A stretch of DNA of 42,655 bases, from positions 1 through 42,655 of the forward strand of contig JAUXDD010000002.1 in assembly GCA_030618465.1 (NCBI GenBank), written 5' to 3'. A model generated the notes under the pieces. It saw nothing but the letters and a program-made list of their open reading frames with translations, ran no database searches and was not told where the DNA came from. Origin of the DNA: Desulfobacteraceae bacterium (GTDB lineage: Bacteria > Desulfobacterota > Desulfobacteria > Desulfobacterales > SURF-7). This document shows positions 591-42,243 of this stretch, in pieces; within the stretch, counting starts at the first letter, position 1; each line of letters opens with the position of its first letter. The translations under genes and the position numbers were made by a program.

Positions 591-723
591 TTTTCTCACC
601 TCATAATAAATTCGAGTTTAACATTTATTAATTGAATTACGTGTTATTTCTGTGTCAATTCCTTTCCTTTATTTCATATTTACAACCATGTAAAAATCTT
701 CCAAAGCACTCTCCTATTCGGAT

Positions 724-1410: not shown

Positions 1411-1425
1411 AATATGACCTCATAC

Positions 1426-1893: not shown

Positions 1894-1912
1894 GTTTGGC
1901 TCCCTTTAAAAA

Positions 1913-2674: not shown

Positions 2675-2692
2675 TGCTTTCTCCCCGTAATT

Positions 2693-3235: not shown

Positions 3236-3536
3236 GATACCCCCTTTAACATTGGTCCGGATATTCGGATCATGAAATAGTGAATTATTTTTCCAGACTT
3301 TCTCATTCAATTTATATGCCAGACATGATTTCCTATTCTGCTGCAGGTTTTATCGCAGAATCAACTTAATTCATATGCACTTGATTTATTTATTTTTTTA
3401 TCAGTTCGCTGGGGTGACATTCCATTTCAAATGATTTCTTTTTTAAAAAATCCCTTGAAAGGAATTATAAAAAAATTTAAGCGGACTATTAATTTTTTTT
3501 ATAATGAATTCGGGTATATTGAAAAATAGTATCTAT

Positions 3537-9474: not shown

Positions 9475-10002
9475 CTATTTAATATTCTTTTGCCGGGCCG
9501 ATGTTCCTGTTTTAAACAGCAATTCGTTTTCATAGCGAAAAAGACCTATAAGCGCTAAAGCCAGCGCATCTGAAGAATGGTTGGGCCGAATCGGGACAGG
9601 ATGGTTTAATAGATGCCGCACAGACTTTTCCAGCTGTATTTTACTTGCATTACCATTCCCGGTGATGACCTGCTTGGCTTCACGGACCGAAACTTCCATT
9701 ACAGGAAGACCGGCCTGGAATCCGGCCAGGAGAATAACACCGCTGACCTTTCCCAGTGTAATCCCGGATTTTGGATATTTCTCCATGGAAAACACATCTT
9801 CAACAACCATGATATCCGGGTTTTCATCCTTTAAAATATCAAGGATCTTTACAAAAATCTCATCAAGACGGGAAGGAAGAGCAGTATCTTTTGACGTATC
9901 AATACTACCAAAGGAATAGCTGTCAACTTTAAATCCTGTCCCGCTGGCCAGTCCGATACCTGTTGCTGCCAGTCCGGGATCTATGCCGATTATTTTTACC
10001 AT
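9475..10002 (-). CDS. ruvC: Crossover junction endodeoxyribonuclease RuvC
   Basis: IIGIDPGLAATGIG is an RNase H-fold N-terminus. 175 aa, adjacent to ruvA. Confidence 0.9.
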   Translation of the reverse strand: MVKIIGIDPGLAATGIGLASGTGFKVDSYSFGSIDTSKDTALPSRLDEIFVKILDILKDENPDIMVVEDVFSMEKYPKSGITLGKVSGVILLAGFQAGLPVMEVSVREAKQVITGNGNASKIQLEKSVRHLLNHPVPIRPNHSSDALALALIGLFRYENELLFKTGTSARQKNIK

Positions 10003-10102
10003 AAATCCGGCTATTTAGTGTCTGAACGAAAATGAATATTTTGAGGATTAAAATTTTTATCTGACACCGAAATTGGGGGAATCAGGCGTTTCCGTTCAGG
10101 CA

Positions 10103-10957
10103 CTATTTATATCCCTTCAATTTCTTTTTGGCCACACCCGCTTCATTTGATTCGGGAAATTTCCGGATCAATTCATTTAACACAAGACGCGCATTTGCCT
10201 TTTCATCAAGATTATGAAACGATAACCCCTGTTTTAAATACGCTGCGGGTACCTTATTGCCTTTGGGGTAGTTTATGATCACCTTCTGGTATTCCAGAAT
10301 GGCTTTTTCATACCATTTTTCCTTGTAAAAAATCTCACCCGTCCAGAATTGAGCATTATCTGCATTTTTTGATTTCGGGAATTTATCCAGATATGTCTGA
10401 AATCCATTTATAGCACCTTCAAAATCACCCTGATCAAACTTTTTCTTCGACCGGGCGTATAACTCCTGCTCAGGCATTTCCCCCTGAGACAGTTTTTTCT
10501 TATTTGCGCTTTTTTTCATGGCGGACTTGATATCGCTCTTTTTTACAATCTCAAGTCCCAGATACTCTTCCAGTTTTGCCAGGCGGTCCGAATTTTTGGT
10601 AACGGATGTATCCAAACCGGTTACCCTTTTTTTGTTGGCTCTATCAGAATCACTTTTACGGTTTATTGCGTATTCAATCTCTTCCAGCCTGCCGTTTATT
10701 GCCTGGGCGTCTTCCCTGAGTTTGTCAACTGTAACCCGCAAACCGGCATATTGATCTCTTAATGCCTGCTCCTTCTGGCTGCGAGATACATCATAATCTA
10801 TTAACCGGGAATCAATTTCACTGTTCTTTTTCCTGGATGAGGAATTCGTTTTTTCAAGTAATGCAATTCTGTCATCCAGCACCGCAAGGTCTCTGTCCAT
10901 GGCGCATCCGCTGCAAATTACAATACAAATTGTAATGATAAGATTTATAACTTTCAT
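10103..10957 (-). CDS. cpoB: Tol-Pal system protein CpoB/YbgF (coiled coil + TPR)
   Basis: Lipoprotein-like signal peptide, coiled-coil N-terminal half, and a C-terminal TPR-like region (YARSKKKFDQGDFEGAINGFQTYLDKFPKSKNADNAQFW...). It lies downstream of pal. Confidence 0.8.
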   Translation of the reverse strand: MKVINLIITICIVICSGCAMDRDLAVLDDRIALLEKTNSSSRKKNSEIDSRLIDYDVSRSQKEQALRDQYAGLRVTVDKLREDAQAINGRLEEIEYAINRKSDSDRANKKRVTGLDTSVTKNSDRLAKLEEYLGLEIVKKSDIKSAMKKSANKKKLSQGEMPEQELYARSKKKFDQGDFEGAINGFQTYLDKFPKSKNADNAQFWTGEIFYKEKWYEKAILEYQKVIINYPKGNKVPAAYLKQGLSFHNLDEKANARLVLNELIRKFPESNEAGVAKKKLKGYK

Positions 10958-11244
10958 GGCAGATAATAAATATGAACTGTTATTATACGATAGCGATTAT
11001 ATTATAGCTCTATCCATTGCCGGGAACACGAATCCCCGGGTAAGGACTCCATAATGCTGGTCTGCATATCCGGCATCTCACTCCAAACGGCTCTATTCCG
11101 GTGGAGGGGAATTGAAACAGCAAACCAGCATAAATATTATAGTGTGGTTCATACAGCTTTCGAGTCTTCCCGTGTCCGCGGAGTCAACCAAACCAGGCAG
11201 ACAATGGCTTCACCTTTGTAGTAAACCCGCTTCCGTTCAGAAAG

Positions 11245-11814
11245 TTAATCGATTGCAAAATGTGCCCGCCTGTTCTTTACCCAGGCTTCTTCGTTGTTGC
11301 CGGGATAAATAGGCTGTTCTTCACCGTAACTGATCGTTGACATGCGGGTACCATCAATTCCCAGATCCTCTAAAAATACTTTTACGCTTTGAGCACGCCT
11401 GTCACCAAGGGCAAGGTTATACTCAGTCGTACCGCGTTCGTCACAATGCCCTTCCACAATAGCCTTTACATCCGGAGTGGCCTGCATCCATACGGCTTTT
11501 CTTCTTAAAATATCCTGTGCTTCGGGTGTCAGAACAGACTGATCATAGTCAAAATAGACATCCTCATTTAAAAACATCTCCCTGGCTTCTTTTGCCTGGC
11601 GCATGATCTCTGCTTCCTCAAGAGCGCGTTGTTTTGCCAGTTCCTCTTCTTGCTGGGCATCCACATCAGATACATCGGCCTGCTCAGCCGATTCCGGCGG
11701 CTCGGTCTCTATTTCCTTCGGTCCACCACACGATGCAAAAAACAAAAGCCCTGTGATTGCAACCACCACTAACAAACCCATCCATAAATTCTTCATCTTT
11801 TTTTCTCCTTTCAT
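11245..11814 (-). CDS. pal: Peptidoglycan-associated lipoprotein Pal (OmpA-like domain)
   Basis: Lipobox LFFASC, then an OmpA-C-like core (VYFDYDQSVLTPEAQDILRRKA..., EGHCDERGTTEYNLALGDRRAQSV). Confidence 0.9.
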   Translation of the reverse strand: MKGEKKMKNLWMGLLVVVAITGLLFFASCGGPKEIETEPPESAEQADVSDVDAQQEEELAKQRALEEAEIMRQAKEAREMFLNEDVYFDYDQSVLTPEAQDILRRKAVWMQATPDVKAIVEGHCDERGTTEYNLALGDRRAQSVKVFLEDLGIDGTRMSTISYGEEQPIYPGNNEEAWVKNRRAHFAID

Positions 11815-11823
11815 GTTTAACAG

Positions 11824-13161
11824 TTAATTGTTGGTAATATTTGACGACCATTTCGGATTCGTCTGCTCACCCGGCAAGGCAAGCAGACGCCGCTGATCGG
11901 TGCCAAACGACGTCATTACATAGATCCTGGCCTTGCCTTCACGTGTTGAACCGAAAACAATAAGCGTCCCGTCAGGAGACCACGCAGGCGATTCATTATC
12001 ACCGGCTTCACAGGTTAAACGGAGGGGCTGTTTGTCTTTAATATTTACAACATAAATATCAAAATGCCCATCACCGAGAGAGGAATAAGCAATTTTATCA
12101 CCTGCGGGAGACCAACTCGGTGTTGTGTTGTATTGCCCCTCAAAGGTTACTCTCTCCACCTGTTCGTTATCCAAATGTTTAATATAAATCTGCGGTGTTC
12201 CTGATCTCTGTGAAACAAAGGCCATTTTATGACCGTCTGGAGAAAACGATGGGGAGACATCGATTCCCCATTGTCTTGTCAGTCTTTTAATAATTTTTCC
12301 GGTCCCGGTCAACATATAAATTTCCGGATCTCCTGAAAATGAGAATGTTGCCGCCAGGGCGAATTTACCTGGAATCCATGCCGGTGATATATTTACCCCC
12401 TTGAGGGCAACAACAAATCCGCGTTTTTCCGTTAAATGTTTGATATAAAGATCCGGATTACCGTTTTTATAATCTGTATAGGCTATCCACTTGCCGTCAT
12501 ATGACCATGCCGGGGACAGTGTAATACTTTTTGTATGGGTGATCTGCCTGGCATTATACCCGTCAAAGTCACATATAAATATATCCTTGTTTCCCGGGCC
12601 TGTGGATTCAAATGCAATTTTACTTTCAAATATCCCCCGCTTTCCTGTGAATTCATAAATAACCGCACCGCAGAACTTACGGATGATTTGCCGTAAATCC
12701 GCCTGTTGCCCTTTGTATCGTTTTCCGATAAGCAAACGATTCTTAAATGTATCAAACAGTCTCAATTCAATTTCAATGACACCATCTTTTATAAGAATAC
12801 CACCTGTTATCAAAAGCTCCGCACCGATTCCGGTCCAGTTTAAAAAATTGATCTGTGATTCAATAATTCCAGCCTTCCGGGTATCCTCCAGGAAAGACGC
12901 ATGATCCATTATCTTGAAGAAGCCTGTAAACTCTAGTGTCTCCGATAGCAGTTGAGAGCCGTTTTCAGATATTTTCTGTTCATTACCGCTGGCGGACATG
13001 GATTTAAAATGGGGTACGGCAATGGGAATTTTTCTTAGAAACGGGTTTGATATGTCAATATAATCATATTTTGCCGGGCAAAATCCCGGCATAAAAAGAA
13101 CCAGCATCGTCGTAATTAATATAATCGTTCCGCATCGTCTTCCGACCAATTCAAAATTCAT
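11824..13161 (-). CDS. tolB: Tol-Pal system beta-propeller protein TolB
   Basis: 445 aa with repeated SP(A/S)WSPDG propeller blades (SPAWSYDGKWIAY, SPSFSPDGHKMAF, TPSWSPAGDKIAY, SPAWSPDGTLIVF). Confidence 0.9.
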   Translation of the reverse strand: MNFELVGRRCGTIILITTMLVLFMPGFCPAKYDYIDISNPFLRKIPIAVPHFKSMSASGNEQKISENGSQLLSETLEFTGFFKIMDHASFLEDTRKAGIIESQINFLNWTGIGAELLITGGILIKDGVIEIELRLFDTFKNRLLIGKRYKGQQADLRQIIRKFCGAVIYEFTGKRGIFESKIAFESTGPGNKDIFICDFDGYNARQITHTKSITLSPAWSYDGKWIAYTDYKNGNPDLYIKHLTEKRGFVVALKGVNISPAWIPGKFALAATFSFSGDPEIYMLTGTGKIIKRLTRQWGIDVSPSFSPDGHKMAFVSQRSGTPQIYIKHLDNEQVERVTFEGQYNTTPSWSPAGDKIAYSSLGDGHFDIYVVNIKDKQPLRLTCEAGDNESPAWSPDGTLIVFGSTREGKARIYVMTSFGTDQRRLLALPGEQTNPKWSSNITNN

Positions 13162-17657: not shown

Positions 17658-17933
17658 TTATTCTGAAGCTTTATCCGCTTTTTTTTCTGTCTTTTTGGTT
17701 TCTTTTTTCGACGTCTCTGCTTTCTTTTCAGAAGAATTGGAAGATTTACCGGGCTCGCCTGCATAATCCGTTACATACCATCCGGAACCCTTAAGATGAA
17801 ACGCGCTATGGGATATGAGTTTCTGCAGTTTGCCTGAGCAGTGTTCGCATTTTGCAAGAGGTTTGTCGGAAAAGTTCTGTAAGGCCTCTATCTGGCTGTG
17901 GCATTTCGTGCATTCATATTCATAAATCGGCAT
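17658..17933 (-). CDS. FmdB-family zinc-ribbon protein
   Basis: MPIYEYECTKCHSQIE...CEHCSG has the CxxC...CxxC FmdB signature, followed by a Lys/Glu-rich tail. The start at 17933 has a GGGAG SD. The track ORF starts at 17996. Confidence 0.8.
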   Translation of the reverse strand: MPIYEYECTKCHSQIEALQNFSDKPLAKCEHCSGKLQKLISHSAFHLKGSGWYVTDYAGEPGKSSNSSEKKAETSKKETKKTEKKADKASE

Positions 17934-18056
17934 TTTAAAATCTCCCTTCCAAATATTTGCTAAGGTAAATTTTTTAACAAAACAAATCCTTAACAAATCT
18001 TCCCGTAAAATAACCTGAAGAGAATATATTCAGTGGTTCCATGTTGTCAAGGTTTA

Positions 18057-31986: not shown

Positions 31987-33033
31987 TTATTCTTCCGGAA
32001 TGGCAGGTGGAGCACACAAACCAGAATCCCCCCAGATGTATTTTCCGTACTTCAGGTACCCCAGAACGTTGTTCAATCGTAAATCAATATTATTTTTAAT
32101 CGGTATAATATCACCCTGGATTAAGGGTTGAAGAAACTTTGACAGTTCCATGCTTCCGCCGCCGGTTAAAATAATGCTGTCAATATCCCAGTCAGAAGAC
32201 CACAGTCTGTTTAAATCATTTGCAATCGTTTCAGCTGTCTGCTGATACACCTGATCCCGGATATTGGTAATATTGTACTCCTGCCCTTTCAATTTAATAG
32301 TACCGGTTTCAACGGCATTGTACAGCCGATACAATTCTACTGCAACACCGCATTTTTCATGAAGTTTGTTGGCAATCACACTGAAACAGTGTGAAATTCC
32401 AGTATCAATTGTACGGCTTCCACGCTCCACATATCGCAGGCTGTCAAAAATTGTAACGTCGGTTGTTCGGAATCCAATATCAACCACGCCAACCTTCTGA
32501 CTGGTCATTTCCATATTAATGATTCCCCCCTTGTCATCCATCAACAGATTAAAAAAGCTGCCCAGGGGCTGAGGCATCATGCGGACCTTGTTAATAAATA
32601 TCTTTTTTATGACTTTATTGCCACCCGGCTCATGATAAATAACTTTATGATGGCCCAGCAGGATCTTTGAAAACAACTTGTTGTTTTTTCTGTAATAACC
32701 GACTGGAAGCCCGGATACAACATTGATCGGTATCTCTTTATCTGCAAACCGCCCCACAACAGTCAGCGCCAGTATCTTAACAAAATCAGACAAAAGTTTT
32801 TCATGCTCCAGGGTAAACTGGCGCGCAGCAGACTGCTGTTCAGCAAAATCACCTACGAAATAGGAGTTGTCTTCTATTGTGACATGTAAATTGCTGGTAA
32901 AGGTGGTATTACCAAAATCCGACACAAAATTGATTTCCGATGCTTCACCCAGAATCGACTTAAACATCAGAGATTCTTTCCCATTGCTCGCTTTTGTAAA
33001 TCCGAACCCTATATCAATGCCAAGGACTTCCAT
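31987..33033 (-). CDS. ParM/StbA-like actin-family ATPase (orphan, chromosomal)
   Basis: Phosphate-1 motif LGIDIGFGFTKA, phosphate-2 motif VGVVDIGFRTTDV, and adenosine motif IILTGGGS. The preferred start is ATG 33033 with a GGAGGA SD. The track ORF starts at 33045. Confidence 0.7.
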   Translation of the reverse strand: MEVLGIDIGFGFTKASNGKESLMFKSILGEASEINFVSDFGNTTFTSNLHVTIEDNSYFVGDFAEQQSAARQFTLEHEKLLSDFVKILALTVVGRFADKEIPINVVSGLPVGYYRKNNKLFSKILLGHHKVIYHEPGGNKVIKKIFINKVRMMPQPLGSFFNLLMDDKGGIINMEMTSQKVGVVDIGFRTTDVTIFDSLRYVERGSRTIDTGISHCFSVIANKLHEKCGVAVELYRLYNAVETGTIKLKGQEYNITNIRDQVYQQTAETIANDLNRLWSSDWDIDSIILTGGGSMELSKFLQPLIQGDIIPIKNNIDLRLNNVLGYLKYGKYIWGDSGLCAPPAIPEE

Positions 33034-33158
33034 TTCATCCTCCATTACACGTAAGCGTATTAATTTTCAATTTCCTGTATGTTTTGTAATGCTGCGGCAC
33101 ATTCCTTAATTTTATTATCATTGGCTGGGAAGACTGTGCTCTTTTCTCCTAAAACAAA

Positions 33159-33760: not shown

Positions 33761-34495
33761 ATGAAAAACGTTTTGATCGTAGATGATGACTCAGCAACAC
33801 GCGCTTTGCTTTCCCGGGTGCTGAAAGTTCACGCCGATGAATTTGATATCCTTACCGCAAAAAACGGCAGGGAAGCATCTGACATCATCAGTTCCAATAA
33901 AATCAATCTTATTATAACAGATATCCAGATGCCTGAGCTGGATGGGTTTGGCCTTATCACTCATGTTGCCAATAATTATCCGGAAATCCCGGTTCTAGTC
34001 ATGACGGCTCATGCAACATCTGACGTTAAAGCCAAACTGAAAACCCATCACTCACCAAAACTGTTTGAAAAGCCCCTGAATATGGATATTCTTACGGAGG
34101 CCATTTCTGAAGAGCTGGATGCCGGTGCTGAAGGCAAAATAAGGGGTATCAGCCTTGCTTCTTTTCTGCAGCTCATCGAGATGGAGAAAAAAACGTGTAC
34201 TTTAAAAATTTCATGCAAAGGTCAATCCGGTAATATGTACTTTCAAAAGGGTGAAATGTTTGATGCTAAAATGGGGGATCTGAAAAAGGAAGAAGCTGCG
34301 TATGAATTAATCTGCTGGGACAAAATTGAAATCGATATAAAAGATGTCTGTAAAAAGCAGCAAAAGGTAATCAACCAGCCTTTAATGAATCTCCTGATGG
34401 AAGCCCTTAAAATAAAAGATGAAAGAGAAGCAAAGGAAAACGTCAGGCGGGCACCGCTAAAACCGTTAAAAAACCTCACCCTCAAAAAAGCCTGA
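33761..34495 (+). CDS. Response regulator: receiver domain + PATAN/DUF4388 domain
   Basis: The receiver domain shows VLIVDDD, LIITDIQMPELDG and FEKP. The C-terminal half (GISLASFLQLIEMEKKTCTLKISCKGQSGNMYFQKGEMFDAKMGDLKKEEAAYELICW) matches the DUF4388/PATAN pattern. Confidence 0.75.
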   Translation: MKNVLIVDDDSATRALLSRVLKVHADEFDILTAKNGREASDIISSNKINLIITDIQMPELDGFGLITHVANNYPEIPVLVMTAHATSDVKAKLKTHHSPKLFEKPLNMDILTEAISEELDAGAEGKIRGISLASFLQLIEMEKKTCTLKISCKGQSGNMYFQKGEMFDAKMGDLKKEEAAYELICWDKIEIDIKDVCKKQQKVINQPLMNLLMEALKIKDEREAKENVRRAPLKPLKNLTLKKA

Positions 34496-34588: not shown

Positions 34589-37500
34589 CTATTCCGCCTG
34601 AACCCCGGCCAGGAATCCTCCAGCAGCGCCGATTTCTTTCACCTGCAAACCGAAATCGTCAAAATAGACTGCTTCCGAGTTCTCCGAATCAATACCAAAT
34701 GTATGCAGCCCCACTTCGGAAGGGGTTGAAGCGCCGGGATCATCATAAATCTCAGAAGTAAGCTGGTTACTGAAAAGAGCGGTGCTGTTAATCGCCCTCT
34801 CACAGATCCTTTTTGTGGCTATTGAAGTGGAGCCGCCGATTGTTACATGAAAGGCGGAATTATTTTTGCTGTTATAGTCTGACCAGACAACCGGGGTAAA
34901 CGGAAATGATTCATCTTCCGGCCATTTCAGTGTGTCCCCGCGGCCGTAAACATCTGGACCGGCAAACCATGCTTTTATGATGTTGTACCGTTCATCGCTT
35001 GAATTTCCGCAGTCTCCGGCAAGAGTTTCATCGAAGAAATCGTCTTTTTCTTCCATAATTCTTGCCATGAGGGTGACCCATTCTTTGAGATAGATAATAT
35101 AGTTCATGGATTTCTGAGTATCCACATCCTGACCGGGAAACACATAGGCGTCAGTAGAAACCGACAGTGTTGTTGTACCGCTGTCATAGTGATAAACTAT
35201 GGCATCAGCAGGCTTACCGGTATCAAACGTATAATCCACGCCACTATATGACAGGGTCTGGGATTCAACAATGCCAGGATAAACGGTTGTCAGTTTTTTT
35301 GCGGCAACGATTTCAGGCATCCTTGGGTCACCGGTTATTATGGCATCACACCATATATCGGATTCGGCAAAAATCATCACTCGTCCGTCTTTTTTTGAAC
35401 CCGGGGGAACGTTGTATTGCGTACCCGGGACGGGATCGGAAAAACTGAATATGTCCCGATACTGCTGGGAACCGGTAGTTGATGTTTTAAACTTTACAAT
35501 ATCACCCAGGATAGTCTCTGTCCAGATTCCCAGATAATCGCCGGATTGACAGGTAAGATTCAACCCATCCCAGGTTTGAATCCCTGTTGTATCAGAGGCT
35601 ACCAATCGTTGGGAATCGCGAACGGTAAAATCATTTCCACTTTTACTGGCAGTAAAAATATAAAAAGAACCGCCGCCTTGATCTATATAGGCCTTAAACC
35701 GTGTTATCGTTCCATCGGTAGTTGCCGGTTCACTCTCGTCAATAAAAATATGATGGTTATTAAAACCACCGGTATTACCCAGATATGGCTCACCGCTTTG
35801 TAATTCTTCACCGCCACCCAGGGTATAACTCCCCGATGGATAGTGATACAATGCCACATCCTCATCGCCGCAAAGCGGCATATACGCCAGCCAGTCAGTC
35901 AGCAGTTCCTCATAGTTTCTGATCCACACAGGATTGTAGGCACTGTTATATTCGTCCAGGTCATCGGCCTTCTGCCAGAGCAGGATATAGGGCACACCGC
36001 TGATCATAGGACTGCCGTCCCAGCCCGCTGATTTACCGGCCGGGTTGTTTACACACATATAATTCAGGTCTGCAGACGAAGCAGGATCTTCAAAAAGAAA
36101 ATCATCCGGGATATCGTCAGGATCAGGATTTGCGCCCAGAGCATTGTTGTCAAAAAGGGGCCTTACAAAAGAGAGTCCGTAATATTCCCTCAGGTCTGAA
36201 TATCCTTCATTCGGTGTACGAACACGAAACAAAAAACCCGGCATATACGTCCCCAGAGGATTACCGGTATCGCTGTCTTCCTCAGCAGTAAATTTGATTT
36301 TTACCTGAAGATCATAGTATAAGCGATCATTGAAATCACTTCTAAGATCCTCCATTGTCTTTTTTTCCCCTGACTCATTCGTAAACTCGAGATCCTGCTT
36401 GAGTTCCAGAAAACTCTCCTGGACATCTTTTCCAGCATATGCTGTGGCAATCGTAGAGCCGCCAACATCCGTTCCCCCCTGTGCGGTTGATACCTGAATC
36501 GCTGCGTCTCCATTAATCGATGTAAGGGTATGCCCCCCCAAAGCTGTCCCCGTATTCCAGTTATCAAGATTATCAAAGGAATCATCCAGCTTATAATTTA
36601 TTACCATGTTTCCTGTGATCAGGGGCAGATTTATTTTCAGGGACCGGGTAGCCTGGTATGCGCCCGTACCGGCAGTGCCGGTTGAAGTAATTAATACGTT
36701 TTTGTTTAATATAAATGTCAAACTGCTTGCCGATACGGTATTATCTTCCAGTGCATATAACGTTGACGATGCATTTCTCACATTGGTAAGAGTGGATGTT
36801 TCAGAATCAACCCTGTCATAAATCAGCAGATAATGATTCGTGCCGTCTGTTACGGTTATCACTCCGTTTAATTTCGGGAAAACACTGAAAGTTCCCGCGT
36901 CAAGGGGTGTTGTTGAACCATTTGACGCAACAATTTGCAAATTATTGTCCGGCTGGATGACCCTGACGTTTCCTGGTGTACTCGAAGCATAAAATGAGGG
37001 ATAAACAGAGGTTCCGGCAGAAATGGCAACGGGTACAGCTATTGATAAATTCAATGTCCATTGCCCAGGCGACGGCTGGTCCCTGTCTATGCTGTCAACA
37101 GGAATATGGATGGGATAACCGTCAATAGCGATTGTTCCGGCAGTAATGTGAGCGTATGCGTCCGGAAATTCATAAGGGGCCCGCACAATCAGTCTGCTGA
37201 AACTGGCAGCATGGTCACCGACCGTTTCAAACCAGTATGAATCAATACCGATGCTGAAACTGTTCTCAGGTGTCAGTTGACAGGTAGTTCCGGCAAGTGT
37301 TTTTAATGCGTCAAAATCGCCGCCTTCCTTCCCGGTAAATGTGTATCCGGCGTATCTGTAGCCTGACTCGGCATTATAATAGGCACGGGTATTTAATAAA
37401 GGTGTTATCGAGCCTGATGTTGACGTGTTCAAAAGTGTTATCACACCTGCGCCAACCACAGAAACCACCACCATGGTAGCAATCACACCGATGAGAACGC

Positions 37501-38242
37501 TGCCCTGCTGGCAGTTGATCATGATCGTTGTGCTGGTTTTTGAAGGAAATAAAATCAGCTGACGTCTTCCTGCCATATACCACAGCAATATCAGGGATAA
37601 AAATATTACAGACACACCCGCACATGAATAATTTTCAGTACCGAAAGCTGCGGCAGTTATAAAACAGGGTGATGTCCCGGGATTTATCCCGGGTGTACCG
37701 GAGACCAGATTAGCAATATCTTCAGGTTGATACAGGTTTCTGGGAACCACCTGTGCCGAAAACGGCACGGACGTTCCTTCTGCCATGGTCATTGAAAAAG
37801 CAATATCTATTCGCGCCAGATCTGAATTAGGGGATGCGGTCCAGGGTGTGGTGCCGTCATTTTTCCAATATGAAAAAGAAAAATCGGAAACATCCTCGGC
37901 CAATATATATGTGTTACCGCCAACAGTTATTTCCAGGGTGTTGCTGCTGTAACTGTACTGCTCGGTTTCCTGGCTGCCGTCCCGGTCAAACGTAACCGCT
38001 ATCGACGTTGATATGGGTTCCGAAGCTATGGAATTTATATCAGTAATATTTCTGAATGTCCGGGTCATCCGGCCCATGGCCATTTGCCCTTTTTGTGAAA
38101 CGTCTGAAACTCCTCTGGCATAAACCAGTGCCCTGGTCCCTCTTAATAGGCCAAAACCTGCTACTGCGGCAAGTATGCCAACCAGTATAAGCGAAGCAAT
38201 GATTTCAACAAGCGTAAATCCTTTATTATTCATTCCCTTCAT
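34589..38242 (-). CDS. Giant (1217 aa) prepilin-headed protein: PilW/GspJ-like module + internal anchor-like segment + PilX_N-like helix + large lectin-like region
   Basis: The N-terminus MKGMNNKG|FTLVEIIASLILVGILAAVAG is a class III signal with E+5. Residues 193-227 read CFITAAAFGTENYSCAGVSVIFLSLILLWYMAGRR. Residues 245-298 read QQGSVLIGVIATMVVVSVVGAG...AYYNAESG (PilX_N-like). The rest has no recognised enzymatic motif, but it shows FDNLDNW ... GFLFRV ... YYGLSF ... VYFDDFGLQV, which resembles a LamG/ConA-like jelly roll. Confidence 0.75.
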   Translation of the reverse strand: MKGMNNKGFTLVEIIASLILVGILAAVAGFGLLRGTRALVYARGVSDVSQKGQMAMGRMTRTFRNITDINSIASEPISTSIAVTFDRDGSQETEQYSYSSNTLEITVGGNTYILAEDVSDFSFSYWKNDGTTPWTASPNSDLARIDIAFSMTMAEGTSVPFSAQVVPRNLYQPEDIANLVSGTPGINPGTSPCFITAAAFGTENYSCAGVSVIFLSLILLWYMAGRRQLILFPSKTSTTIMINCQQGSVLIGVIATMVVVSVVGAGVITLLNTSTSGSITPLLNTRAYYNAESGYRYAGYTFTGKEGGDFDALKTLAGTTCQLTPENSFSIGIDSYWFETVGDHAASFSRLIVRAPYEFPDAYAHITAGTIAIDGYPIHIPVDSIDRDQPSPGQWTLNLSIAVPVAISAGTSVYPSFYASSTPGNVRVIQPDNNLQIVASNGSTTPLDAGTFSVFPKLNGVITVTDGTNHYLLIYDRVDSETSTLTNVRNASSTLYALEDNTVSASSLTFILNKNVLITSTGTAGTGAYQATRSLKINLPLITGNMVINYKLDDSFDNLDNWNTGTALGGHTLTSINGDAAIQVSTAQGGTDVGGSTIATAYAGKDVQESFLELKQDLEFTNESGEKKTMEDLRSDFNDRLYYDLQVKIKFTAEEDSDTGNPLGTYMPGFLFRVRTPNEGYSDLREYYGLSFVRPLFDNNALGANPDPDDIPDDFLFEDPASSADLNYMCVNNPAGKSAGWDGSPMISGVPYILLWQKADDLDEYNSAYNPVWIRNYEELLTDWLAYMPLCGDEDVALYHYPSGSYTLGGGEELQSGEPYLGNTGGFNNHHIFIDESEPATTDGTITRFKAYIDQGGGSFYIFTASKSGNDFTVRDSQRLVASDTTGIQTWDGLNLTCQSGDYLGIWTETILGDIVKFKTSTTGSQQYRDIFSFSDPVPGTQYNVPPGSKKDGRVMIFAESDIWCDAIITGDPRMPEIVAAKKLTTVYPGIVESQTLSYSGVDYTFDTGKPADAIVYHYDSGTTTLSVSTDAYVFPGQDVDTQKSMNYIIYLKEWVTLMARIMEEKDDFFDETLAGDCGNSSDERYNIIKAWFAGPDVYGRGDTLKWPEDESFPFTPVVWSDYNSKNNSAFHVTIGGSTSIATKRICERAINSTALFSNQLTSEIYDDPGASTPSEVGLHTFGIDSENSEAVYFDDFGLQVKEIGAAGGFLAGVQAE

Positions 38243-38253
38243 TGTTTTACCCT

Positions 38254-38718
38254 TTAGAAACTGATACCACCCCTGTCATAAAATAAGGATGTTAATGTGA
38301 TCCCTGTTGACGAATCCGTAAGTGTAAGCCTCATGATCGGGCCATTTACAGAAGGTGAGCTCAATACCCCGCTGCTGAATGAGGCATATCGCTTCATATC
38401 ATCTGCCGTGTTGATAAAATCAGCGTAGTTCGCGTTTATAAATATGGAAAGTTTATTTAATACATGGATTTCAGTCGGATTATAAAGCAGGTTAAAATAA
38501 TACAGATTAATATTTTCCATAACCAGTTCCATGGCATATGTCCGCTGTATTGCCTCAATGGGTTGCGAACTTCTTTGCAGGGCAGAGCCTGTAATGGTTA
38601 CCAGCATTGTGCCCAAAATGGCTGCAACAATCAGTGAAACAATAATTTCCAGCAAGGTAAACCCCTGCTCACTTTTTACCAGCATTTTATATGTTTGATC
38701 AGGCAGTGTTGTTTTCAT
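38254..38718 (-). CDS. Prepilin-type N-terminal domain protein (minor pilin/pseudopilin-like)
   Basis: SEQG|FTLLEIIVSLIVAAILGTMLV. 154 aa, with a 4-nt ATGA overlap with the upstream gene. Confidence 0.7.
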   Translation of the reverse strand: MKTTLPDQTYKMLVKSEQGFTLLEIIVSLIVAAILGTMLVTITGSALQRSSQPIEAIQRTYAMELVMENINLYYFNLLYNPTEIHVLNKLSIFINANYADFINTADDMKRYASFSSGVLSSPSVNGPIMRLTLTDSSTGITLTSLFYDRGGISF

Positions 38719-39170
38719 GGAATATACCCTGTATTGGGAGTTATGAGGATGTCATCCCTGTTGCCGACCTTATATGTATTATTTATCACCGTATTGTTAT
38801 TTACCCCGGTATAGGGCCGCCCCCATGTATCAAAAGAGATATACCCGGCAGCGGTTATACCGTCCGGCATATTCACATTGACTGTATCTTCACCCGGGAG
38901 AGTAAAATCCTGTTGAGCACCGTCAAACTTATACAGTTTGTATGTTGAACTCTGAAACTCAATACCCCACACGGAACCTGTGTTCATTGCCATGGACTGA
39001 GCATGGCGCATATGTGATTTCAGTATGGCAATCCGGATCAACTGATTACTCTGGTTTGTCGTATCAACTACCCTGACAGCTACCACCGCAGAGACAATCC
39101 CTATTAAGATCAATACCACAACAATCTCAATAAGGGTAAAACCGCGATTATTTTTTATGATATTAGTCAC
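38715..39170 (-). CDS. GspH/FimT-like minor pilin/pseudopilin
   Basis: MTNIIKNNRG|FTLIEIVVVLILIGIVSAV, then a LKSHMRHAQSMAM helix, with FDTWGRP and ITPNTGYI near the C-terminus. 151 aa. Confidence 0.7.
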   Translation of the reverse strand: MTNIIKNNRGFTLIEIVVVLILIGIVSAVVAVRVVDTTNQSNQLIRIAILKSHMRHAQSMAMNTGSVWGIEFQSSTYKLYKFDGAQQDFTLPGEDTVNVNMPDGITAAGYISFDTWGRPYTGVNNNTVINNTYKVGNRDDILITPNTGYIP

Positions 39171-39456: not shown

Positions 39457-39669
39457 TCAGCCGCCCGGCATTGATCCGCCACAGGCAGGCCCGTCAAAGC
39501 CGCCGGAACCAGTGGGAATTCCTTCTGCCCTGAAACTTCCGGCAGACATGAGTTTTTCCACATTTCCTTTTCCGCATTTCGGGCACAGGGACACAGAATC
39601 ATCCGAAGATAAAAAAAGTTCTTCAAATTGATGGTTACAGTCTTTACATTTAAACTCAAATATTGGCAT
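39457..39669 (-). CDS. FmdB-family zinc-ribbon protein (second copy)
   Basis: MPIFEFKCKDCNHQFE...CPKCG, with a Gly-rich tail. ATG 39669 has a GGAG SD. The track ORF starts at 39738. Confidence 0.8.
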   Translation of the reverse strand: MPIFEFKCKDCNHQFEELFLSSDDSVSLCPKCGKGNVEKLMSAGSFRAEGIPTGSGGFDGPACGGSMPGG

Positions 39670-39714
39670 AATAAACTCCTTGGACAAAAAAACGTAATTT
39701 TGAATAACAGATTT

Positions 39715-39743
39715 ATGATAAACCATACACACTCTCATATCAA
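39715..39743 (-). promoter_or_regulatory. Candidate sigma70 promoter for the FmdB-like gene (and possibly the pilin-like operon downstream)
   Basis: Minus strand reads TTGATA (39743-39738), a 17-nt spacer, then TATCAT (39720-39715). Confidence 0.45.
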
Positions 39744-40559: not shown

Positions 40560-40949
40560 GCTGGTTACTTTTAAATTATTAAAATTATGCCCTTGTTAAA
40601 CACCCAGTTTTTTCCGTCCCTTATCCGGCAGAGTAAAGTTATGATATGACCTGAAACAGATTATAAGGCAAATATTTTTTTATTTATTGACAAAACATAA
40701 TTTTATTTTATAAACATTGTTATTATTTAATTTTTATTTTGTATTATTTTACTGCTGGCAGACAGCAACTGTGAAAAGTTTGTAATATTAATATACGCTC
40801 TTTTTCACAATTTTTTATTTTAGTGCCGCCAGGATAACTATTTGTTCTTTTTGATATTTCTTCTATGCGATGAACAGGTATGATTCTTGCTTTCTGATTA
40901 CTTAATTATTAAAGGGTTCCAAAATTACGTCAAGTATGGAGGTGTGAAA

Positions 40950-41639
40950 GTGAAACAATTAATCAGACAGTTTCTGATATTTGGAATTGCGCTTTTTGTG
41001 TTATGTGCATTCACGCCGTCAAACAGTTTTGCCGGTGTGAATGTCTTTGCAGAAGGAGCGTATACGGCGACTGACCTCGTTGTTTATATCTATGCAGACA
41101 TTGATGGTGGTACCGTGTTGAGGAGTGCGGGCGTCAAACTGATGTATCCGGCCGCAGAGCTGAATGTAACCAGCGCAGAAAAAAATGAAACTGCCTGGTT
41201 TTTGGGCAGCGAGTCGTACATGGACCCGGACACGGGCACGGCCGGTGAAGTGATTTTTATCCTGGGCAAACTTGACACTGCGGCACCCGCAGAAGGTGTG
41301 AGTGGAACCAGGGTTTTGCTGGGAAAAGTCACTTTTGATCGCACGGACAGCACCATGCCGTATGCGCCTGTATTGAGTATGGTTCTGGGTAAATCAGGCG
41401 ATTTCGCCAACTTTGTTGATACAGCAACTCCTGCTGTTGTGATGGATGGGAGTGTGACTTTTGGTACGATGACGGTGAGGGAACGCGGTGATGCTAATGG
41501 GGATGGGAATATCAATTCCGTTGATTATGTTGCCTTACGAAATAATCTGGGCACGACGTATTTTCCACCCTATATGGACTGTAACGACGATGGATCGATT
41601 AACTCAGTGGATTATGTGTGTGTGAGAAATAAGCTTTAA
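40950..41639 (+). CDS. Secreted protein with cohesin-like beta-sandwich and C-terminal type I dockerin
   Basis: A GTG start follows a GGAGGTG SD. The signal peptide is KQLIRQFLIFGIALFVLCAFTPSNSFA. The C-terminus (41487-41636) carries two EF-hand-like dockerin repeats, DANGDGNINSVDYVALRNNL and DCNDDGSINSVDYVCVRNKL. The central region is beta-rich with cohesin-like patterns (weaker evidence). Confidence 0.6.
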   Translation: MKQLIRQFLIFGIALFVLCAFTPSNSFAGVNVFAEGAYTATDLVVYIYADIDGGTVLRSAGVKLMYPAAELNVTSAEKNETAWFLGSESYMDPDTGTAGEVIFILGKLDTAAPAEGVSGTRVLLGKVTFDRTDSTMPYAPVLSMVLGKSGDFANFVDTATPAVVMDGSVTFGTMTVRERGDANGDGNINSVDYVALRNNLGTTYFPPYMDCNDDGSINSVDYVCVRNKL

Positions 41640-41772: not shown

Positions 41773-42243
41773 ATGATAGACAAATCAATTATTTTTATTT
41801 CTTTTGTTTTATGTTGTTTGTTTGTTCAGCCAGTGTACGCAGACACTATTGTTAGTTTTGACCTGGATGGGCTGGATGTTGCATCTTTCGAGTTTGCCGT
41901 AGTGGACGAAGATTACGCTGTTGCCGATTTCACTACCAGTTTGCCTGATGGGTGGATGGACATGTCTTCAGAAGATACTTTCGCTTCACTTGACATGGGG
42001 GGTAGCAACTCACTGACATCAGGTGATATCGGACTTTTCACTGCTGACGGCGTCATATTAGGTAACTTTGTTCTTGGGAATCAGGCTGCTGAGACTCTTG
42101 TTCAAAATTCAGATTACTGGGTTCATGAGATAACCGGCGCTTACCTGGTATCTGCATCAGAGACAATTCCCATCCCCGGAGCATTCTGGCTTCTCGGTTC
42201 TGCTCTGATCGGGCTTGTGGGAGTTAAGAGAAAATTTAATTAA
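41773..42243 (+). CDS. Small secreted protein with PEP-CTERM/VPLPA-CTERM-type sorting signal
   Basis: Strong SD GGAGAGGGGGAG. The signal peptide ends in VYA. The C-terminus IPIPGAFWLLGSALIGLVGVKRKFN is a Pro-rich motif followed by a TM helix and a basic tail. Confidence 0.6.
   Translation: MIDKSIIFISFVLCCLFVQPVYADTIVSFDLDGLDVASFEFAVVDEDYAVADFTTSLPDGWMDMSSEDTFASLDMGGSNSLTSGDIGLFTADGVILGNFVLGNQAAETLVQNSDYWVHEITGAYLVSASETIPIPGAFWLLGSALIGLVGVKRKFN

What the first reader, a model, noticed from the sequence alone, without database searches (positions are those of the whole stretch)
34589..39170. Second, atypical prepilin operon ending in a 1217-aa pilin-headed giant: candidate undescribed type IV filament tip/adhesin module
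Three co-directional, tightly coupled ORFs each begin with a class III signal (G|FTL-I/L/V-E). They are joined by an ATGA overlap at 38715-38718 and an 11-nt gap at 38243-38253. The first is GspH/FimT-like and the second is a small minor pilin. The third starts as a PilW/GspJ-like minor pilin but runs for 1217 aa and includes a PilX/GspK-like helix. Together this gives an H/I/J/K-type priming or tip set in which the K-like member carries roughly 950 aa of extra mass. That mass could be displayed at a filament tip. No extension ATPase, platform protein, PilMNOPQ or secretin lies in the window, and a conventional minor-pilin operon already exists at 1-3310. This set may therefore re-program a shared machine for a different function such as adhesion, cell-cell contact or gliding. 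The closest analogy I know is MshO/MshP/MshQ of MSHA pili, but the arrangement and the fusion differ.
Basis: partly seen in the sequence, partly recalled or inferred. Interest (0 to 1): 0.8.

Follow-up and report, generated by a model that had tools for sequence, protein, structure and literature searches.

The report
Fused minor-pilin tip module with giant cap
Three adjacent genes encode a complete four-part starter and tip set for a type IV pilus, in which two parts are fused into one membrane-threaded precursor and the capping part carries about 900 extra residues, and this uncharacterised family occurs across sulfate-reducing and syntrophic Desulfobacterota.

Summary
Three coupled minus-strand ORFs (39170-38715, 38718-38254, 38242-34589) each carry a prepilin signal above the Pfam threshold. 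The 1217-aa ORF is intact in a second assembly.

It is not a one-off. An exhaustive HMMER search found 356 representative relatives. A genome scan found 119 loci, nearly all in Desulfobacterota, with conserved H-I-J-K order.

J and K are separate genes in 31 of 80 genomes and fused in 40. In fused forms the join is always a membrane-spanning linker, usually a full CFI-box-CTERM domain used internally. The window keeps only CFITAAAFG, one TM helix and RR.

After the linker comes a basic loop ending in a near-invariant Gly (143/144). A hydrophobic helix without Glu5 follows. This is a K-type class III signal, the same as in stand-alone K homologues. I infer a double-cut precursor that releases a 970-aa cap. 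That cap has a hypervariable insert and a conserved extreme C-terminus (GF/LLPGVQxE).

In relatives the set sits beside its own machine: a PilQ-type secretin, an ExeA-like ATPase, an ATPase with an MshEN domain, a platform protein and a sigma-54 regulator. It is not MshQ and not GspK by any model tested.

Verdict: a real, widespread, uncharacterised new variant of a known kind.

The parts
38715..39170 (-). ORF1, an H-type (GspH/FimU/ComGD-like) minor pilin of 151 aa. The leader is MTNIIKNNRG|FTLIE.
   Evidence: N_methyl scores 33.6 bits, above the cut-off. TIGR01708 gspH gives 3e-13 and 50 bits, below the cut-off of 80, and covers profile positions 2-90. ComGD gives 2e-10. Orthologues occupy the same position in about 74 loci.
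38254..38718 (-). ORF2, an I-position small minor pilin of 154 aa with site QG|FTLLE. It overlaps ORF1 by ATGA.
   Evidence: N_methyl scores 25.8 bits. It forms its own conserved family of 57 ORFs in 57 loci, always between H and J. Beyond the N-terminal helix it has no similarity to GspI models.
34589..38242 (-). ORF3, a 1217-aa J-linker-K precursor with three predicted membrane spans.
   Evidence: The ORF is intact in a second assembly. The same fused architecture occurs in 40 of 80 species loci and in about 80 of 150 representatives.
38219..38242 (-). First class III leader, aa 1-8 (MKGMNNKG), with predicted cleavage at G8|F9.
   Evidence: N_methyl scores 23.7 bits. G8, F9, T10, L11 and E13 are invariant in the J alignment.
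37673..38218 (-). J-position pilin module, aa 9-190, ending in the conserved VPRN motif (aa 166-169).
   Evidence: It aligns end to end with stand-alone J proteins of 150-215 aa that stop just after PRN. phmmer hits appear in 77 loci. No GspJ/PilW model hit extends beyond the helix.
37559..37672 (-). Linker, aa 191-228: a vestigial CFI-box motif (CFITAAAFG, aa 193-201), TM2 (aa 205-225) and RR.
   Evidence: Hydropathy analysis. A family-specific CFI HMM matches only the motif, at 10-11 bits. The curated NF041770 model does not hit the window protein. It does hit 8 of 8 long-linker homologues at 58-87 bits, at internal positions.
37502..37558 (-). Basic cytoplasmic loop, aa 229-247, ending in QQG247. 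This is the candidate internal class III leader for K.
   Evidence: G247 is conserved in 143 of 144 sequences. The -2 position is K/R in 88 of 136. Fused loops have a median of 5 K+R and 0 D+E, like the leaders of stand-alone K (median 3 K+R). No Shine-Dalgarno sequence lies before M241.
37334..37501 (-). K alpha-1 helix, aa 248-303 (SVLIGVIATMVVV...), without Glu at +5.
   Evidence: AF2 predicts one 55-residue helix. Position +5 is G, A, S, P or T in at least 131 of 145 sequences, and Glu is not among the six commonest residues. PilX_N hits 2 of 58 family members but not the window protein.
36605..37333 (-). K N-terminal beta region, aa 304-546: a four-strand sheet right after the helix, then further beta domains.
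   Evidence: AF2 model of aa 248-554 has pLDDT 85.2 and pTM 0.82. This is the best-conserved part of the family, covered by most hits. No significant PDB fold match.
35867..36604 (-). First half of the conserved beta-sandwich, aa 547-792 (motifs LYYDLQVKIKF, YMPGFLFRVR, YYGLSFVR, DDIPD, PYILLWQ, WLAYMPLC).
   Evidence: Conserved columns Y643, Q646, K648 and G669. AF2 gives beta strands of moderate to high confidence.
35123..35866 (-). Lineage-specific insert, aa 793-1040, the hypervariable region of the family and the candidate ligand-binding part.
   Evidence: AF2 pLDDT is below 50 across K-part residues 559-806. Homologues carry different inserts here: about 105 aa in P0002, a Cys-rich insert in P0003 and MAM-like/Reelin-B-like domains in 17 and 12 of 58 members. 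No Pfam hit in the window protein.
34670..35122 (-). Second half of the conserved beta-sandwich, aa 1041-1191 (NYIIYLKEWVTLMARI ... EVGLHTFGID).
   Evidence: Matched by P0020 at 48% identity over this part. AF2 predicts confident strands.
34592..34669 (-). Conserved C-terminal signature, aa 1192-1217 (VYFDDFGLQ ... GGFLAGVQAE-COOH), the candidate terminal beta-strand that returns to the K pilin sheet.
   Evidence: The YFDDF motif occurs in 103 of 150 family members. The GF/LLP(P/G)(I/V)Q(Q/E) motif ends 0-2 residues from the C-terminus. The last strand is modelled at pLDDT 87. The concept comes from PMC13533445. The contact itself was not tested.

Best explanation
**What it is.** The locus encodes the four core minor pilins (H, I, J, K) that nucleate and cap a type IV filament. 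They belong to a large, uncharacterised family that is almost confined to Desulfobacterota.

**Shown.**
- The gene order is H-I-J-K and is conserved across the family.
- H, I and J have class III signals with Glu5.
- K has a class III-like signal without Glu5, which is the hallmark of the apical K subunit.
- In this genome J and K are one ORF.

**Inferred topology.**
- The J helix runs in to out, and the J globular domain sits in the periplasm.
- A vestigial CFI motif and TM2 run out to in.
- A basic cytoplasmic loop of about 20 aa ends in Gly247.
- The K helix runs in to out, followed by a 970-aa K ectodomain.

**Inferred mechanism.** The loop plus Gly looks like the leader of stand-alone K homologues. 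Prepilin peptidase would therefore cut twice, at G8|F9 and at G247|S248. This would deliver J and K in 1:1 ratio at the same membrane site. K would cap the complex, I and J would dock beneath it, and H would adapt to the major pilin. An MshE-like ATPase would then extend the fibre.

**Inferred display.** K's conserved extreme C-terminus probably folds back to complete its pilin-like sheet, as in GspK and CpaL. That would leave the hypervariable insert (aa 793-1040) exposed at the tip as an adhesin or receptor-binding module.

**Confidence by sub-claim.**
- HIJK tip/priming module of a real family: about 0.85.
- K as a tip-displayed adhesin carrier: about 0.6.
- Internal cleavage by the peptidase: about 0.45.
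For: - All three ORFs score above threshold for N_methyl. The H-like protein hits gspH and ComGD models over 90-100 residues, below cut-off.
- The family comprises 356 representative proteins with E<=1e-3 and 119 genomic loci.
- H-I-J-K synteny holds in essentially every locus that is long enough.
- States are 40 fused and 31 split. Split J stops right after PRN and often overlaps the K start. L012 has a stand-alone J that ends in a true C-terminal CFI box.
- NF041770 CFI_box_CTERM is found internally in 8 of 8 long-linker homologues tested.
- Gly(-1) is conserved in 143 of 144 sequences, the -2 position is basic, and Glu is absent at +5, in both fused and split forms.
- Fused loops are basic and leader-like.
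- Fused and split states interleave on a crude NJ tree, with about 8-12 changes. This suggests the two forms are functionally interchangeable.
- The extreme C-terminus is conserved. This matches the C-terminal beta-strand licensing signal described for K-family and PilY1/MshQ/CpaL proteins (PMC13533445).
- Bulky inserts between the last strands of PilX have precedent in cyanobacteria and in ComZ.
- A dedicated secretin, AAA_22 protein, MshEN-T2SSE ATPase, T2SSF platform, sigma-54 regulator and small pilin lie next to the set in relatives.
- Substitutions between the two strains suggest purifying selection, with 16 synonymous and 10 non-synonymous changes.
Against: - No fold match to GspK, PilX or any pilin for the K N-domain model or for the whole K model.
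- The I and J assignments rest on position, size and signal only.
- PilX_N does not hit the window protein.
- Prepilin peptidases are not known to cut behind a 240-residue, two-span 'leader'.
- After such a cut J would still carry TM2. That should tether it to the membrane unless another activity removes it, and I have no explanation for this.
- In long-linker homologues the hydrophobic stretch after the CFI box is about 40 aa. It is sometimes predicted as two spans, which would break the topology.
- No machine genes, prepilin peptidase or candidate major pilin lie in the window.
- 37% of the K model has pLDDT below 50.
- The contact between the C-terminal strand and the pilin sheet was not modelled.
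Confidence: 0.55

Rival explanations
1. The J-K fusion is not cut internally. ORF3 would remain a three-span inner-membrane protein. It would act as a membrane-anchored nucleator or as the base of a short periplasmic pseudopilus, as in a T2SS. The 970-aa domain would then work in the periplasm or at the secretin rather than at a distal tip.
For: - The linker always contains a TM segment.
- NCBI pipelines name homologues 'type II secretion system protein'.
- The ATPase and platform of relatives score as high on the GspE and GspF models as on PilB and PilC.
- No retraction ATPase was noticed among the conserved neighbours.
- No precedent is known to me for internal prepilin-peptidase cleavage.
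Against: - Thirty-one of 80 species encode J and K as separate, ordinary prepilins with no linker. States switch repeatedly on the tree. Covalent linkage therefore cannot be required for the mechanism.
- Gly(-1) and the leader-like basic loop are kept in fused forms. An uncut internal helix would not need them.
- The secretin of relatives is PilQ-type and above cut-off.
- A hypervariable insert is typical of exposed binding modules.
Confidence: 0.22
2. The set is an alternative priming complex. It would use the same machine as the conventional FimT-PilV-PilW-PilX-PilY1 operon at the other end of the window and build a second, functionally distinct filament.
For: - No machine genes lie near the set in this window.
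- A canonical minor-pilin and PilY1 operon exists in the same genome.
- Two core minor-pilin sets share one machine in cyanobacteria (bioRxiv 10.64898/2026.02.12.705559).
- The closest K homologue, P0002, is a solitary gene far from any pilus genes.
Against: - In 43 of 80 related loci, and in the close relative L082, the set lies directly downstream of its own secretin, ATPase, platform and small pilin. This argues that the family co-evolved with a dedicated machine.
- The rest of this genome is unseen.
Confidence: 0.2
3. The 1217-aa ORF is an assembly or sequencing artefact, or a decaying pseudogene made by loss of a stop codon between two genes.
For: J and K are separate in many relatives, often with overlapping stop and start codons. 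A single-base change could therefore fuse them.
Against: - Two independent assemblies have the identical frame with no indel over 3654 nt, and synonymous changes exceed non-synonymous ones.
- The same fused architecture, with a dedicated TM linker, occurs in 40 species-level genomes and about 80 representative clusters.
- A simple read-through of overlapping genes would not create a TM linker.
Confidence: 0.02

Closest known systems
GspH-I-J-K of type II secretion, and FimU-PilV-PilW-PilX (PilH-I-J-K) of type IVa pili
   Same: - Four consecutive pilin-like genes in the same order.
- The first three have Glu5 and the last lacks it.
- The H protein shows sub-threshold GspH and ComGD similarity.
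- The predicted role is nucleation and capping of the fibre.
   Different: - No equivalog model reaches its cut-off.
- The I, J and K globular parts have no detectable sequence or fold similarity to solved GspI, GspJ or GspK.
- J and K are fused through a membrane-spanning linker.
- K is about 5 times larger than PilX and about 3 times larger than GspK.
K-type tip pilins with an adhesin inserted before the terminal strand: CpaL (Caulobacter Tad), ComZ (Thermus) and cyanobacterial PilX-EPS/HpsA
   Same: - An N-terminal pilin-like module without Glu5.
- A large, variable middle region.
- A conserved extreme C-terminus that could complete the pilin sheet in cis (concept from PMC13533445 and bioRxiv 10.64898/2026.02.12.705559).
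   Different: - No homology was detected.
- The middle region is predicted as beta barrels and sandwiches, not a beta-solenoid.
- None of these is reported fused to its J partner.
MshD/O/P plus MshQ of Vibrio MSHA pili
   Same: - Minor pilins are followed by a protein of about 1200 aa at the 3' end of the operon.
- The ATPase of relatives has the MshE-type c-di-GMP-binding N-domain.
- An ExeA/MshM-like AAA protein is present.
- MshQ is proposed to be tip-associated through its C-terminal strand.
   Different: - MshQ is a separate, non-pilin protein acting in trans on MshP. Here the giant protein is itself the K pilin.
- No MshQ-type domain was hit.
- The secretin is PilQ-type, not MshL.
CFI-box-CTERM domain (NCBIfam NF041770)
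   Same: The motif CF(I/V)ATAAYG is followed by about 50 residues and a hydrophobic span. It is present at 58-87 bits in long-linker homologues. One stand-alone J protein (L012) carries it at its true C-terminus.
   Different: - In this family it is mostly internal and joins two pilin modules.
- The window protein keeps only the 9-residue motif and one TM helix, and it fails the curated model.
- The function of the domain is unknown, and no paper mentions it.

Membership tests
Type IV pilin-like proteins (class III signal, PF07963/TIGR02532) | An N-terminal G|(F/M)xxxE motif followed by a hydrophobic helix, scoring above the curated cut-off. | tested here: met
   All three ORFs pass: 33.6, 25.8 and 23.7 bits against 21.2. 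TIGR02532 also passes at 30, 21.3 and 22.4 bits against 16.3.
GspH/FimU/ComGD (H-type minor pilin) | The equivalog HMM scores above its cut-off over the globular domain. | tested here: inconclusive
   For ORF1, TIGR01708 gives 50 bits against 80 (E=3e-13, profile positions 2-90 of 169). ComGD gives 41 bits against 70. Pfam GspH (PF12019) does not hit. ORF1 takes the first position in the operon, as expected for an H subunit.
GspK/PilX (K-type apical minor pilin) | A class III-type signal with Gly at -1 and no Glu at +5. | tested here: met
   The site is QQG247|SVLIG. Gly is conserved in 143 of 144 family members. Position +5 is G, A, S, P or T, and Glu is not among the six commonest residues.
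GspK/PilX (K-type apical minor pilin) | A match to PilX_N (PF14341) or to the gspK equivalog. | tested here: not met
   The window K part has no Pfam or NCBIfam family. PilX_N hits only 2 of 58 family members at 4e-4.
GspK/PilX (K-type apical minor pilin) | A pilin fold similar to solved GspK or XcpX. | tested here: not met
   The confident AF2 model (pLDDT 85) has a 55-aa helix followed by a four-strand sheet. Foldseek against the PDB gives no hit with E<1e-3 and no pilin among the top 50.
GspK/PilX (K-type apical minor pilin) | A C-terminal beta-strand that completes the K sheet (PMC13533445). | tested here: inconclusive
   The extreme C-terminal motif is conserved family-wide and is modelled as a confident strand. 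Model coordinates and contacts were not available, so the pairing partner is unknown.
GspI/PilV and GspJ/PilW (I and J minor pilins) | Sequence or profile similarity in the globular domain. | tested here: not met
   Profiles of the I and J families match PDB and NCBIfam entries only over the N-terminal helix. The assignment rests on gene order, size and Glu5.
MSHA pilus system (MshQ; MshL; MshE) | MshQ-type domains in the large protein. | tested here: not met
   No Laminin_G_3, DUF6701 or any other Pfam or NCBIfam hit in aa 273-1217.
MSHA pilus system (MshQ; MshL; MshE) | An MshL-type secretin and an MshE-type ATPase in the associated machine. This could be tested only in relatives. | tested here: inconclusive
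   The secretin scores 335 bits on PilQ TIGR02515 (cut-off 284), but only 98 bits on MshL TIGR02519 (cut-off 250). The ATPase has the MshEN and NF053729 c-di-GMP motif at 53.5 bits against 38. The features are mixed, so the system is not a bona fide MSHA.
CFI-box-CTERM (NF041770) | The curated HMM scores above 40 bits and the domain lies at the C-terminus. | tested here: not met
   The window protein has no hit even at E<=10. Only the CFITAAAFG motif matches a home-made family HMM, at 10-11 bits. Homologues pass the score (58-87 bits), but at an internal position.
Substrate of prepilin peptidase at an internal site | Cleavage after Gly247. | not testable with these tools
   This is inferred from conservation of the site and the leader-like loop. 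It needs biochemistry.

The most novel reading that the evidence does not exclude
ORF3 and its roughly 40 species-level fused homologues would be natural tandem prepilins. Each would be one polypeptide with two class III signals, threaded three times through the inner membrane by a co-opted CFI-box anchor. Prepilin peptidase would cut it twice, so the J and K subunits of the tip complex would be born side by side in 1:1 stoichiometry. This would be the first case of prepilin peptidase acting on an internal site. It would also be the first functional context for the orphan CFI-box-CTERM domain. The K product would be a PilX-PilY1-in-one cap with a hypervariable binding insert. It would define a Desulfobacterota-specific type IV filament that may matter for aggregation or partner contact in syntrophic and sulfate-reducing consortia.
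Probability: 0.4. Interest if true: 0.78.

Novelty: new variant of a known kind. Interest (0 to 1): 0.62.

Why it matters
- Minor-pilin tip complexes decide whether, where and with what specificity type IV filaments assemble. Current work is showing that the K subunit and a terminal beta-strand license assembly (PMC13533445).
- This family offers natural experiments on that mechanism. J and K occur covalently linked or separate in close relatives. K carries its own adhesin and a strongly conserved terminal peptide.
- If the internal site is cut, the known substrate range of prepilin peptidases widens. The uncharacterised CFI-box domain would also gain a role.
- The family is widespread in Desulfobacterales, Syntrophales and relatives, where pili are invoked for aggregation, syntrophy and electron transfer. 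A lineage-specific tip adhesin with a hypervariable insert is a concrete candidate for partner or surface recognition.

Tried and rejected
**Searches that led nowhere**
- The word-index homology searches found only the protein itself and one pilin fragment, with the full protein and with the 150-sequence alignment. I suspect, but did not test, that the candidate lists were swamped by N-terminal pilin words. The exhaustive HMMER search was needed to see the family.
- Pfam and NCBIfam on the 950-aa region and its sub-pieces gave nothing, even at E<=10.
- PDB sequence searches with family profiles for H, I, J and K matched only N-terminal helices of MshA, geopilin, PilA and similar proteins.
- Foldseek against the PDB gave no significant or sensible match, for the whole K model or the confident N-domain model. 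The best local similarities were small beta-barrels (T5 pb9, EF-Tu domain 2).
- The literature search found no paper that mentions 'CFI-box'. No description of J-K fusions or of this Desulfobacterota family turned up either.

**Ideas considered and set aside**
- Internal translation start for K: no Shine-Dalgarno-like sequence precedes M241 or M223. I do not favour it, but it is not excluded.
- MshQ orthology and bona fide MSHA membership: rejected.
- T2SS GspHIJK orthology: rejected at equivalog level.
- Assembly artefact: rejected.
- A conserved functional link to the window neighbours (ParM-like actin, the response regulator with a PatA_N domain, the Zn-ribbon protein, the MBL-fold protein): not supported. 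None recurs next to the set in other genomes. The response regulator hits in 14 loci were not examined further, and two of them are neighbours labelled as sigma-54 regulators.

Full report

Yes. Three minus-strand ORFs lie at 39170-38715 (151 aa), 38718-38254 (154 aa) and 38242-34589 (1217 aa). The ATGA overlap and the 11-nt spacer are as described. Each ORF starts with a short basic leader ending in Gly, followed by FTL(I/L/V)E and a hydrophobic helix. Pfam N_methyl scores 33.6, 25.8 and 23.7 bits, against a gathering cut-off of 21.2. A second public assembly (GCA_028571845.1, contig JAPVVX010000136, L001) is 99% identical over 9.4 kb. It carries the same 3654-nt frame without any indel. There are 16 synonymous and 10 non-synonymous differences, so the long ORF is not an artefact and looks constrained.

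The rest of the window is ordinary chromosome: rpsI/rplM, ruvABC, tol-pal, groEL, ileS, lspA, lgt and holA. None of the ORFs scanned, which are most of those of at least 100 aa, is a pilus ATPase, platform, PilMNOP or secretin. The other minor-pilin operon (GspH-like, PilW-like, N_methyl, PilX_N; 3310-724) is real. It continues into a PilY1-like gene with a vWA-type 'LLLIIDNSASM' motif that runs off the window start.

**2. Anatomy of the 1217-aa protein**

Hydropathy shows three membrane-length segments: aa 9-35, 205-225 and 248-272.
- Residues 9-190 form a pilin-like module that ends in VPRN.
- Residues 193-201 read CFITAAAFG. TM2 and Arg-Arg follow.
- A 20-residue loop ends in QQG247.
- Next comes SVLIGVIATMVVV..., a helix with no Glu at +5.
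- About 945 residues without any Pfam or NCBIfam match follow.

AlphaFold2, run with a 58-sequence family alignment, gives four regions:
- a single 55-residue helix (aa 248-303);
- confident beta-rich domains up to about aa 546;
- a conserved beta-sandwich split by a low-confidence region (aa 793-1040);
- a confident final strand at the very C-terminus.

A second model of aa 248-554 alone reaches pLDDT 85 and pTM 0.82.

**3. It belongs to a large family**

The word-index searches saw only the protein itself. An exhaustive HMMER scan with aa 235-1217 found 356 representative proteins at E<=1e-3, of which 22 are at E<=1e-30. They come in two architectures:
- proteins of about 750-880 aa that start directly with the K-type helix;
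- proteins of about 1000-1280 aa that start with a GFTLIE prepilin module and reach the K helix at residue 230-345, like the window protein.

A scan of one genome per species gave 119 confirmed loci (80 kept). Almost all are Desulfobacterota: Desulfobacterales, Syntrophales, Desulfarculia and Desulfurivibrio. Cultured members include Desulfosarcina alkanivorans PL12, Desulfosudis oleivorans and Desulfocicer vacuolatum.

Public names for members are generic: 'prepilin-type N-terminal cleavage/methylation domain-containing protein', 'type II secretion system protein' or 'hypothetical protein'. I found no paper that describes the family.

**4. Synteny**

In essentially every locus that is long enough, the order is H (150-165 aa), I (130-155 aa), J, K.
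- J and K are fused in 40 genomes and separate in 31. The rest lie at contig ends.
- Separate J proteins are 150-215 aa. They stop a few residues after the PRN motif, often overlapping the K start codon.
- One genome (L012) has a separate J of 343 aa that ends in a complete CFI box and hydrophobic tail. A few others end in a remnant '...CFI...'.
- On a crude neighbour-joining tree of the K N-domain, fused and split states interleave, with at most about 12 changes. Some apparent changes are inflated by contig-edge cases.

**5. The linker**

Eight of eight long-linker homologues hit NCBIfam NF041770 (CFI_box_CTERM) at 58-87 bits (cut-off 40). The hits fall at positions about 190-290 of proteins of 1087-1264 aa. 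A domain named for its C-terminal position is therefore used here internally. The window protein, like P0003, P0004 and P0012, has a short version. Only the nine-residue motif and one TM helix remain. It fails the curated model and matches a home-made family HMM only over the motif.

A TM segment is topologically necessary for any J-K fusion. The J C-terminus is periplasmic, and the K leader must be cytoplasmic. This explains why every fused form has such a linker (inference).

**6. The second signal**

- Across 144 aligned family members the Gly before the K helix is conserved in 143.
- The preceding residue is Lys or Arg in 88 of 136.
- The +1 residue is Ser or Ala.
- The +5 residue is Gly, Ala, Ser, Pro or Thr, and Glu is not among the six commonest residues.
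- In fused proteins the loop between the previous TM helix and this Gly has a median of 5 Lys+Arg and 0 Asp+Glu. The N-terminal leaders of stand-alone K proteins have a median length of 17 aa and 3 Lys+Arg.
- Lack of Glu5 is the recognised hallmark of the apical K subunit (PMC13533445; bioRxiv 10.64898/2026.02.12.705559).

From this I infer that prepilin peptidase also cuts after Gly247 and releases K. This is not shown. No ribosome-binding site precedes the internal Met241, so a separate internal start is not favoured.

**7. The C-terminus and the insert**

In 103 of 150 family members the protein ends with ...E.GLHTFG...VYFDDFG(L/I)Q, then 10-16 variable residues, then GF/L(L/M)P(P/G)(I/V)Q(Q/E). 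This final motif ends zero to two residues before the stop codon. The window protein ends ...VYFDDFGLQVKEIGAAGGFLAGVQAE.

A 2026 study shows that an extreme C-terminal strand of 6-10 aa completes the K sheet and licenses tip-complex assembly. The strand is supplied in cis by GspK, ComGG and CpaL, or in trans by PilC/PilY1 and probably by MshQ. The conserved terminus here fits the in-cis case. I could not inspect model contacts.

Between WLAYMPLC and NYIIYLKEWVTLMARI the family is hypervariable in length and content. The region is about 105 aa in P0002, Cys-rich in P0003 and about 250 aa here. In 17 and 12 of 58 members it matches MAM-like and Reelin-B-like beta-sandwich domains that map to this region. 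This is the pattern expected of an exposed binding module (inference).

**8. The machine**

The window has none. Among the 80 related loci, the conserved neighbours are:

| Neighbour | Loci |
|---|---|
| T2SSE ATPase with an MshEN domain | 43 |
| Sigma-54 response regulator | 37 |
| T2SSF platform | 26 |
| Multi-span TPR protein, TMTC-like | 20 |
| AAA_22 ExeA/MshM-like protein | 19 |
| ECF sigma factor | 19 |
| Putative partner of the ECF sigma factor | 15 |
| GT2 glycosyltransferase | 12 |
| Secretin | 9 |

Typical order is secretin, AAA_22, ATPase, platform, regulator, small pilin, H, I, J, K. This order holds in the close, fused, short-linker relative P0004 (L082).

By NCBIfam the secretin is PilQ-type (335 bits against 284), not MshL (98 bits against 250). 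The ATPase and platform fall just below both the Gsp and Pil equivalog cut-offs. The ATPase carries the MshE-type c-di-GMP motif. The system is therefore its own branch of type IVa-like filaments with some MSHA-like traits.

The closest K homologue (P0002, 41% identity) is a solitary gene among housekeeping genes. The module is therefore mobile within genomes.

**9. Comparison with known systems**

In function the set works like GspHIJK or PilHIJK. The giant K resembles CpaL, ComZ and cyanobacterial PilX-EPS, which carry an adhesin between the pilin core and the terminal strand. It also resembles a PilX-PilY1 or MshP-MshQ pair rolled into one protein.

Membership fails at the model level.
- The H protein is sub-threshold for GspH and ComGD.
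- I, J and K match known proteins only in the helix.
- The confident K N-domain model has no PDB neighbour.
- No MshQ domains are present.

The J-K fusion through a membrane-spanning CFI-box linker, followed by a second class III site, has no precedent that I could find.

**10. Verdict**

It is less singular than claimed, because it is a widespread family. It is also more peculiar, because of the tandem-prepilin architecture.

Confidence by claim:
- HIJK tip module of a genuine family: about 0.85.
- Tip-displayed adhesin cap: about 0.6.
- Double cleavage: about 0.45.

Main unresolved points:
- the fate of the TM2 tail left on J;
- the topology of the long-linker forms;
- which machine serves the set in this genome.

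Noticed in passing
window 1-~640 (minus strand), continuing from the operon at 724-3310: An ORF running off the window start begins MVKKNAQIIIICC... and contains 'PNLLLIIDNSASM', a vWA/MIDAS-like motif typical of the PilY1 N-terminus. The first operon is therefore a full FimT/GspH - PilW-like - PilV-like - PilX - PilY1 set. The genome thus has one PilY1-type tip set and one giant-K tip set.
   Followed up: partly
L053:5979-8099, L006:5632-7794, L082:16561-18402, L058:5620-6558 and about 20 further loci: A multi-span membrane protein with C-terminal TPRs (weak TMTC_DUF1736 hit, GT-C-like) lies next to the HIJK operon in 20 genomes, usually divergently. A GT2 glycosyltransferase (polyprenyl-phosphate-sugar synthase type) does so in 12 genomes. 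This suggests glycosylation of these pilins or of the K adhesin. Neither gene is near the set in the window.
   Followed up: partly
L024:3476-6438 and L024:8315-12736: One Syntrophales genome carries two copies of the module in the same locus: a split J (183 aa) plus K (797 aa) pair, and a complete H-I-fused-JK set. An ECF sigma factor gene lies between them.
   Followed up: no
L084 (contig JBMXUB010000138), gene at 10001-12601: The closest homologue of the window K part (P0002, 866 aa, 41% identity) is a solitary stand-alone K gene. It lies between phosphoglucomutase and a Bax1-I gene, with no H, I or J nearby.
   Followed up: no
window 31987-33045 (-) and 33761-34495 (+): Directly downstream of the giant ORF lie two genes. 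One is a response regulator with a PatA_N/DUF4388 domain. The other is a ParM/Alp-type actin-like protein (ALP_N 1e-37; sub-threshold hits to ParM, PRTRC protein D and the 'filament morphology' FcmB). It sits in a chromosomal rather than plasmid context. Neither is a conserved neighbour of the module in other genomes.
   Followed up: partly
window 40887-41639 (+) and 41773-42243 (+): One secreted protein ends in a type I dockerin domain (1.3e-10), which is unusual outside cellulosome-producing Firmicutes. Its 156-aa neighbour ends '...IPIPGAFWLLGSALIGLVGVKRKFN', which looks like a PEP-CTERM-type sorting tail. Pfam found no family for that neighbour.
   Followed up: no
window 39457-39738 (-) and 17658-17996 (-): There are two paralogous FmdB-type zinc-ribbon proteins (PF09723). 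One lies immediately upstream of the pilin operon, and the same arrangement is seen in L001. Its function is unknown.
   Followed up: no
L026:9307-9957, L023:9129-9935, L047:6129-6893: Some 'split' J genes end in a remnant CFI motif (...YACFIDSIL*, ...YSCFVRVAAQ..., ...YSCFIGGVARIF...) and overlap the K gene out of frame. These may be recent fissions of fused genes by frameshift, or assembly errors.
   Followed up: no
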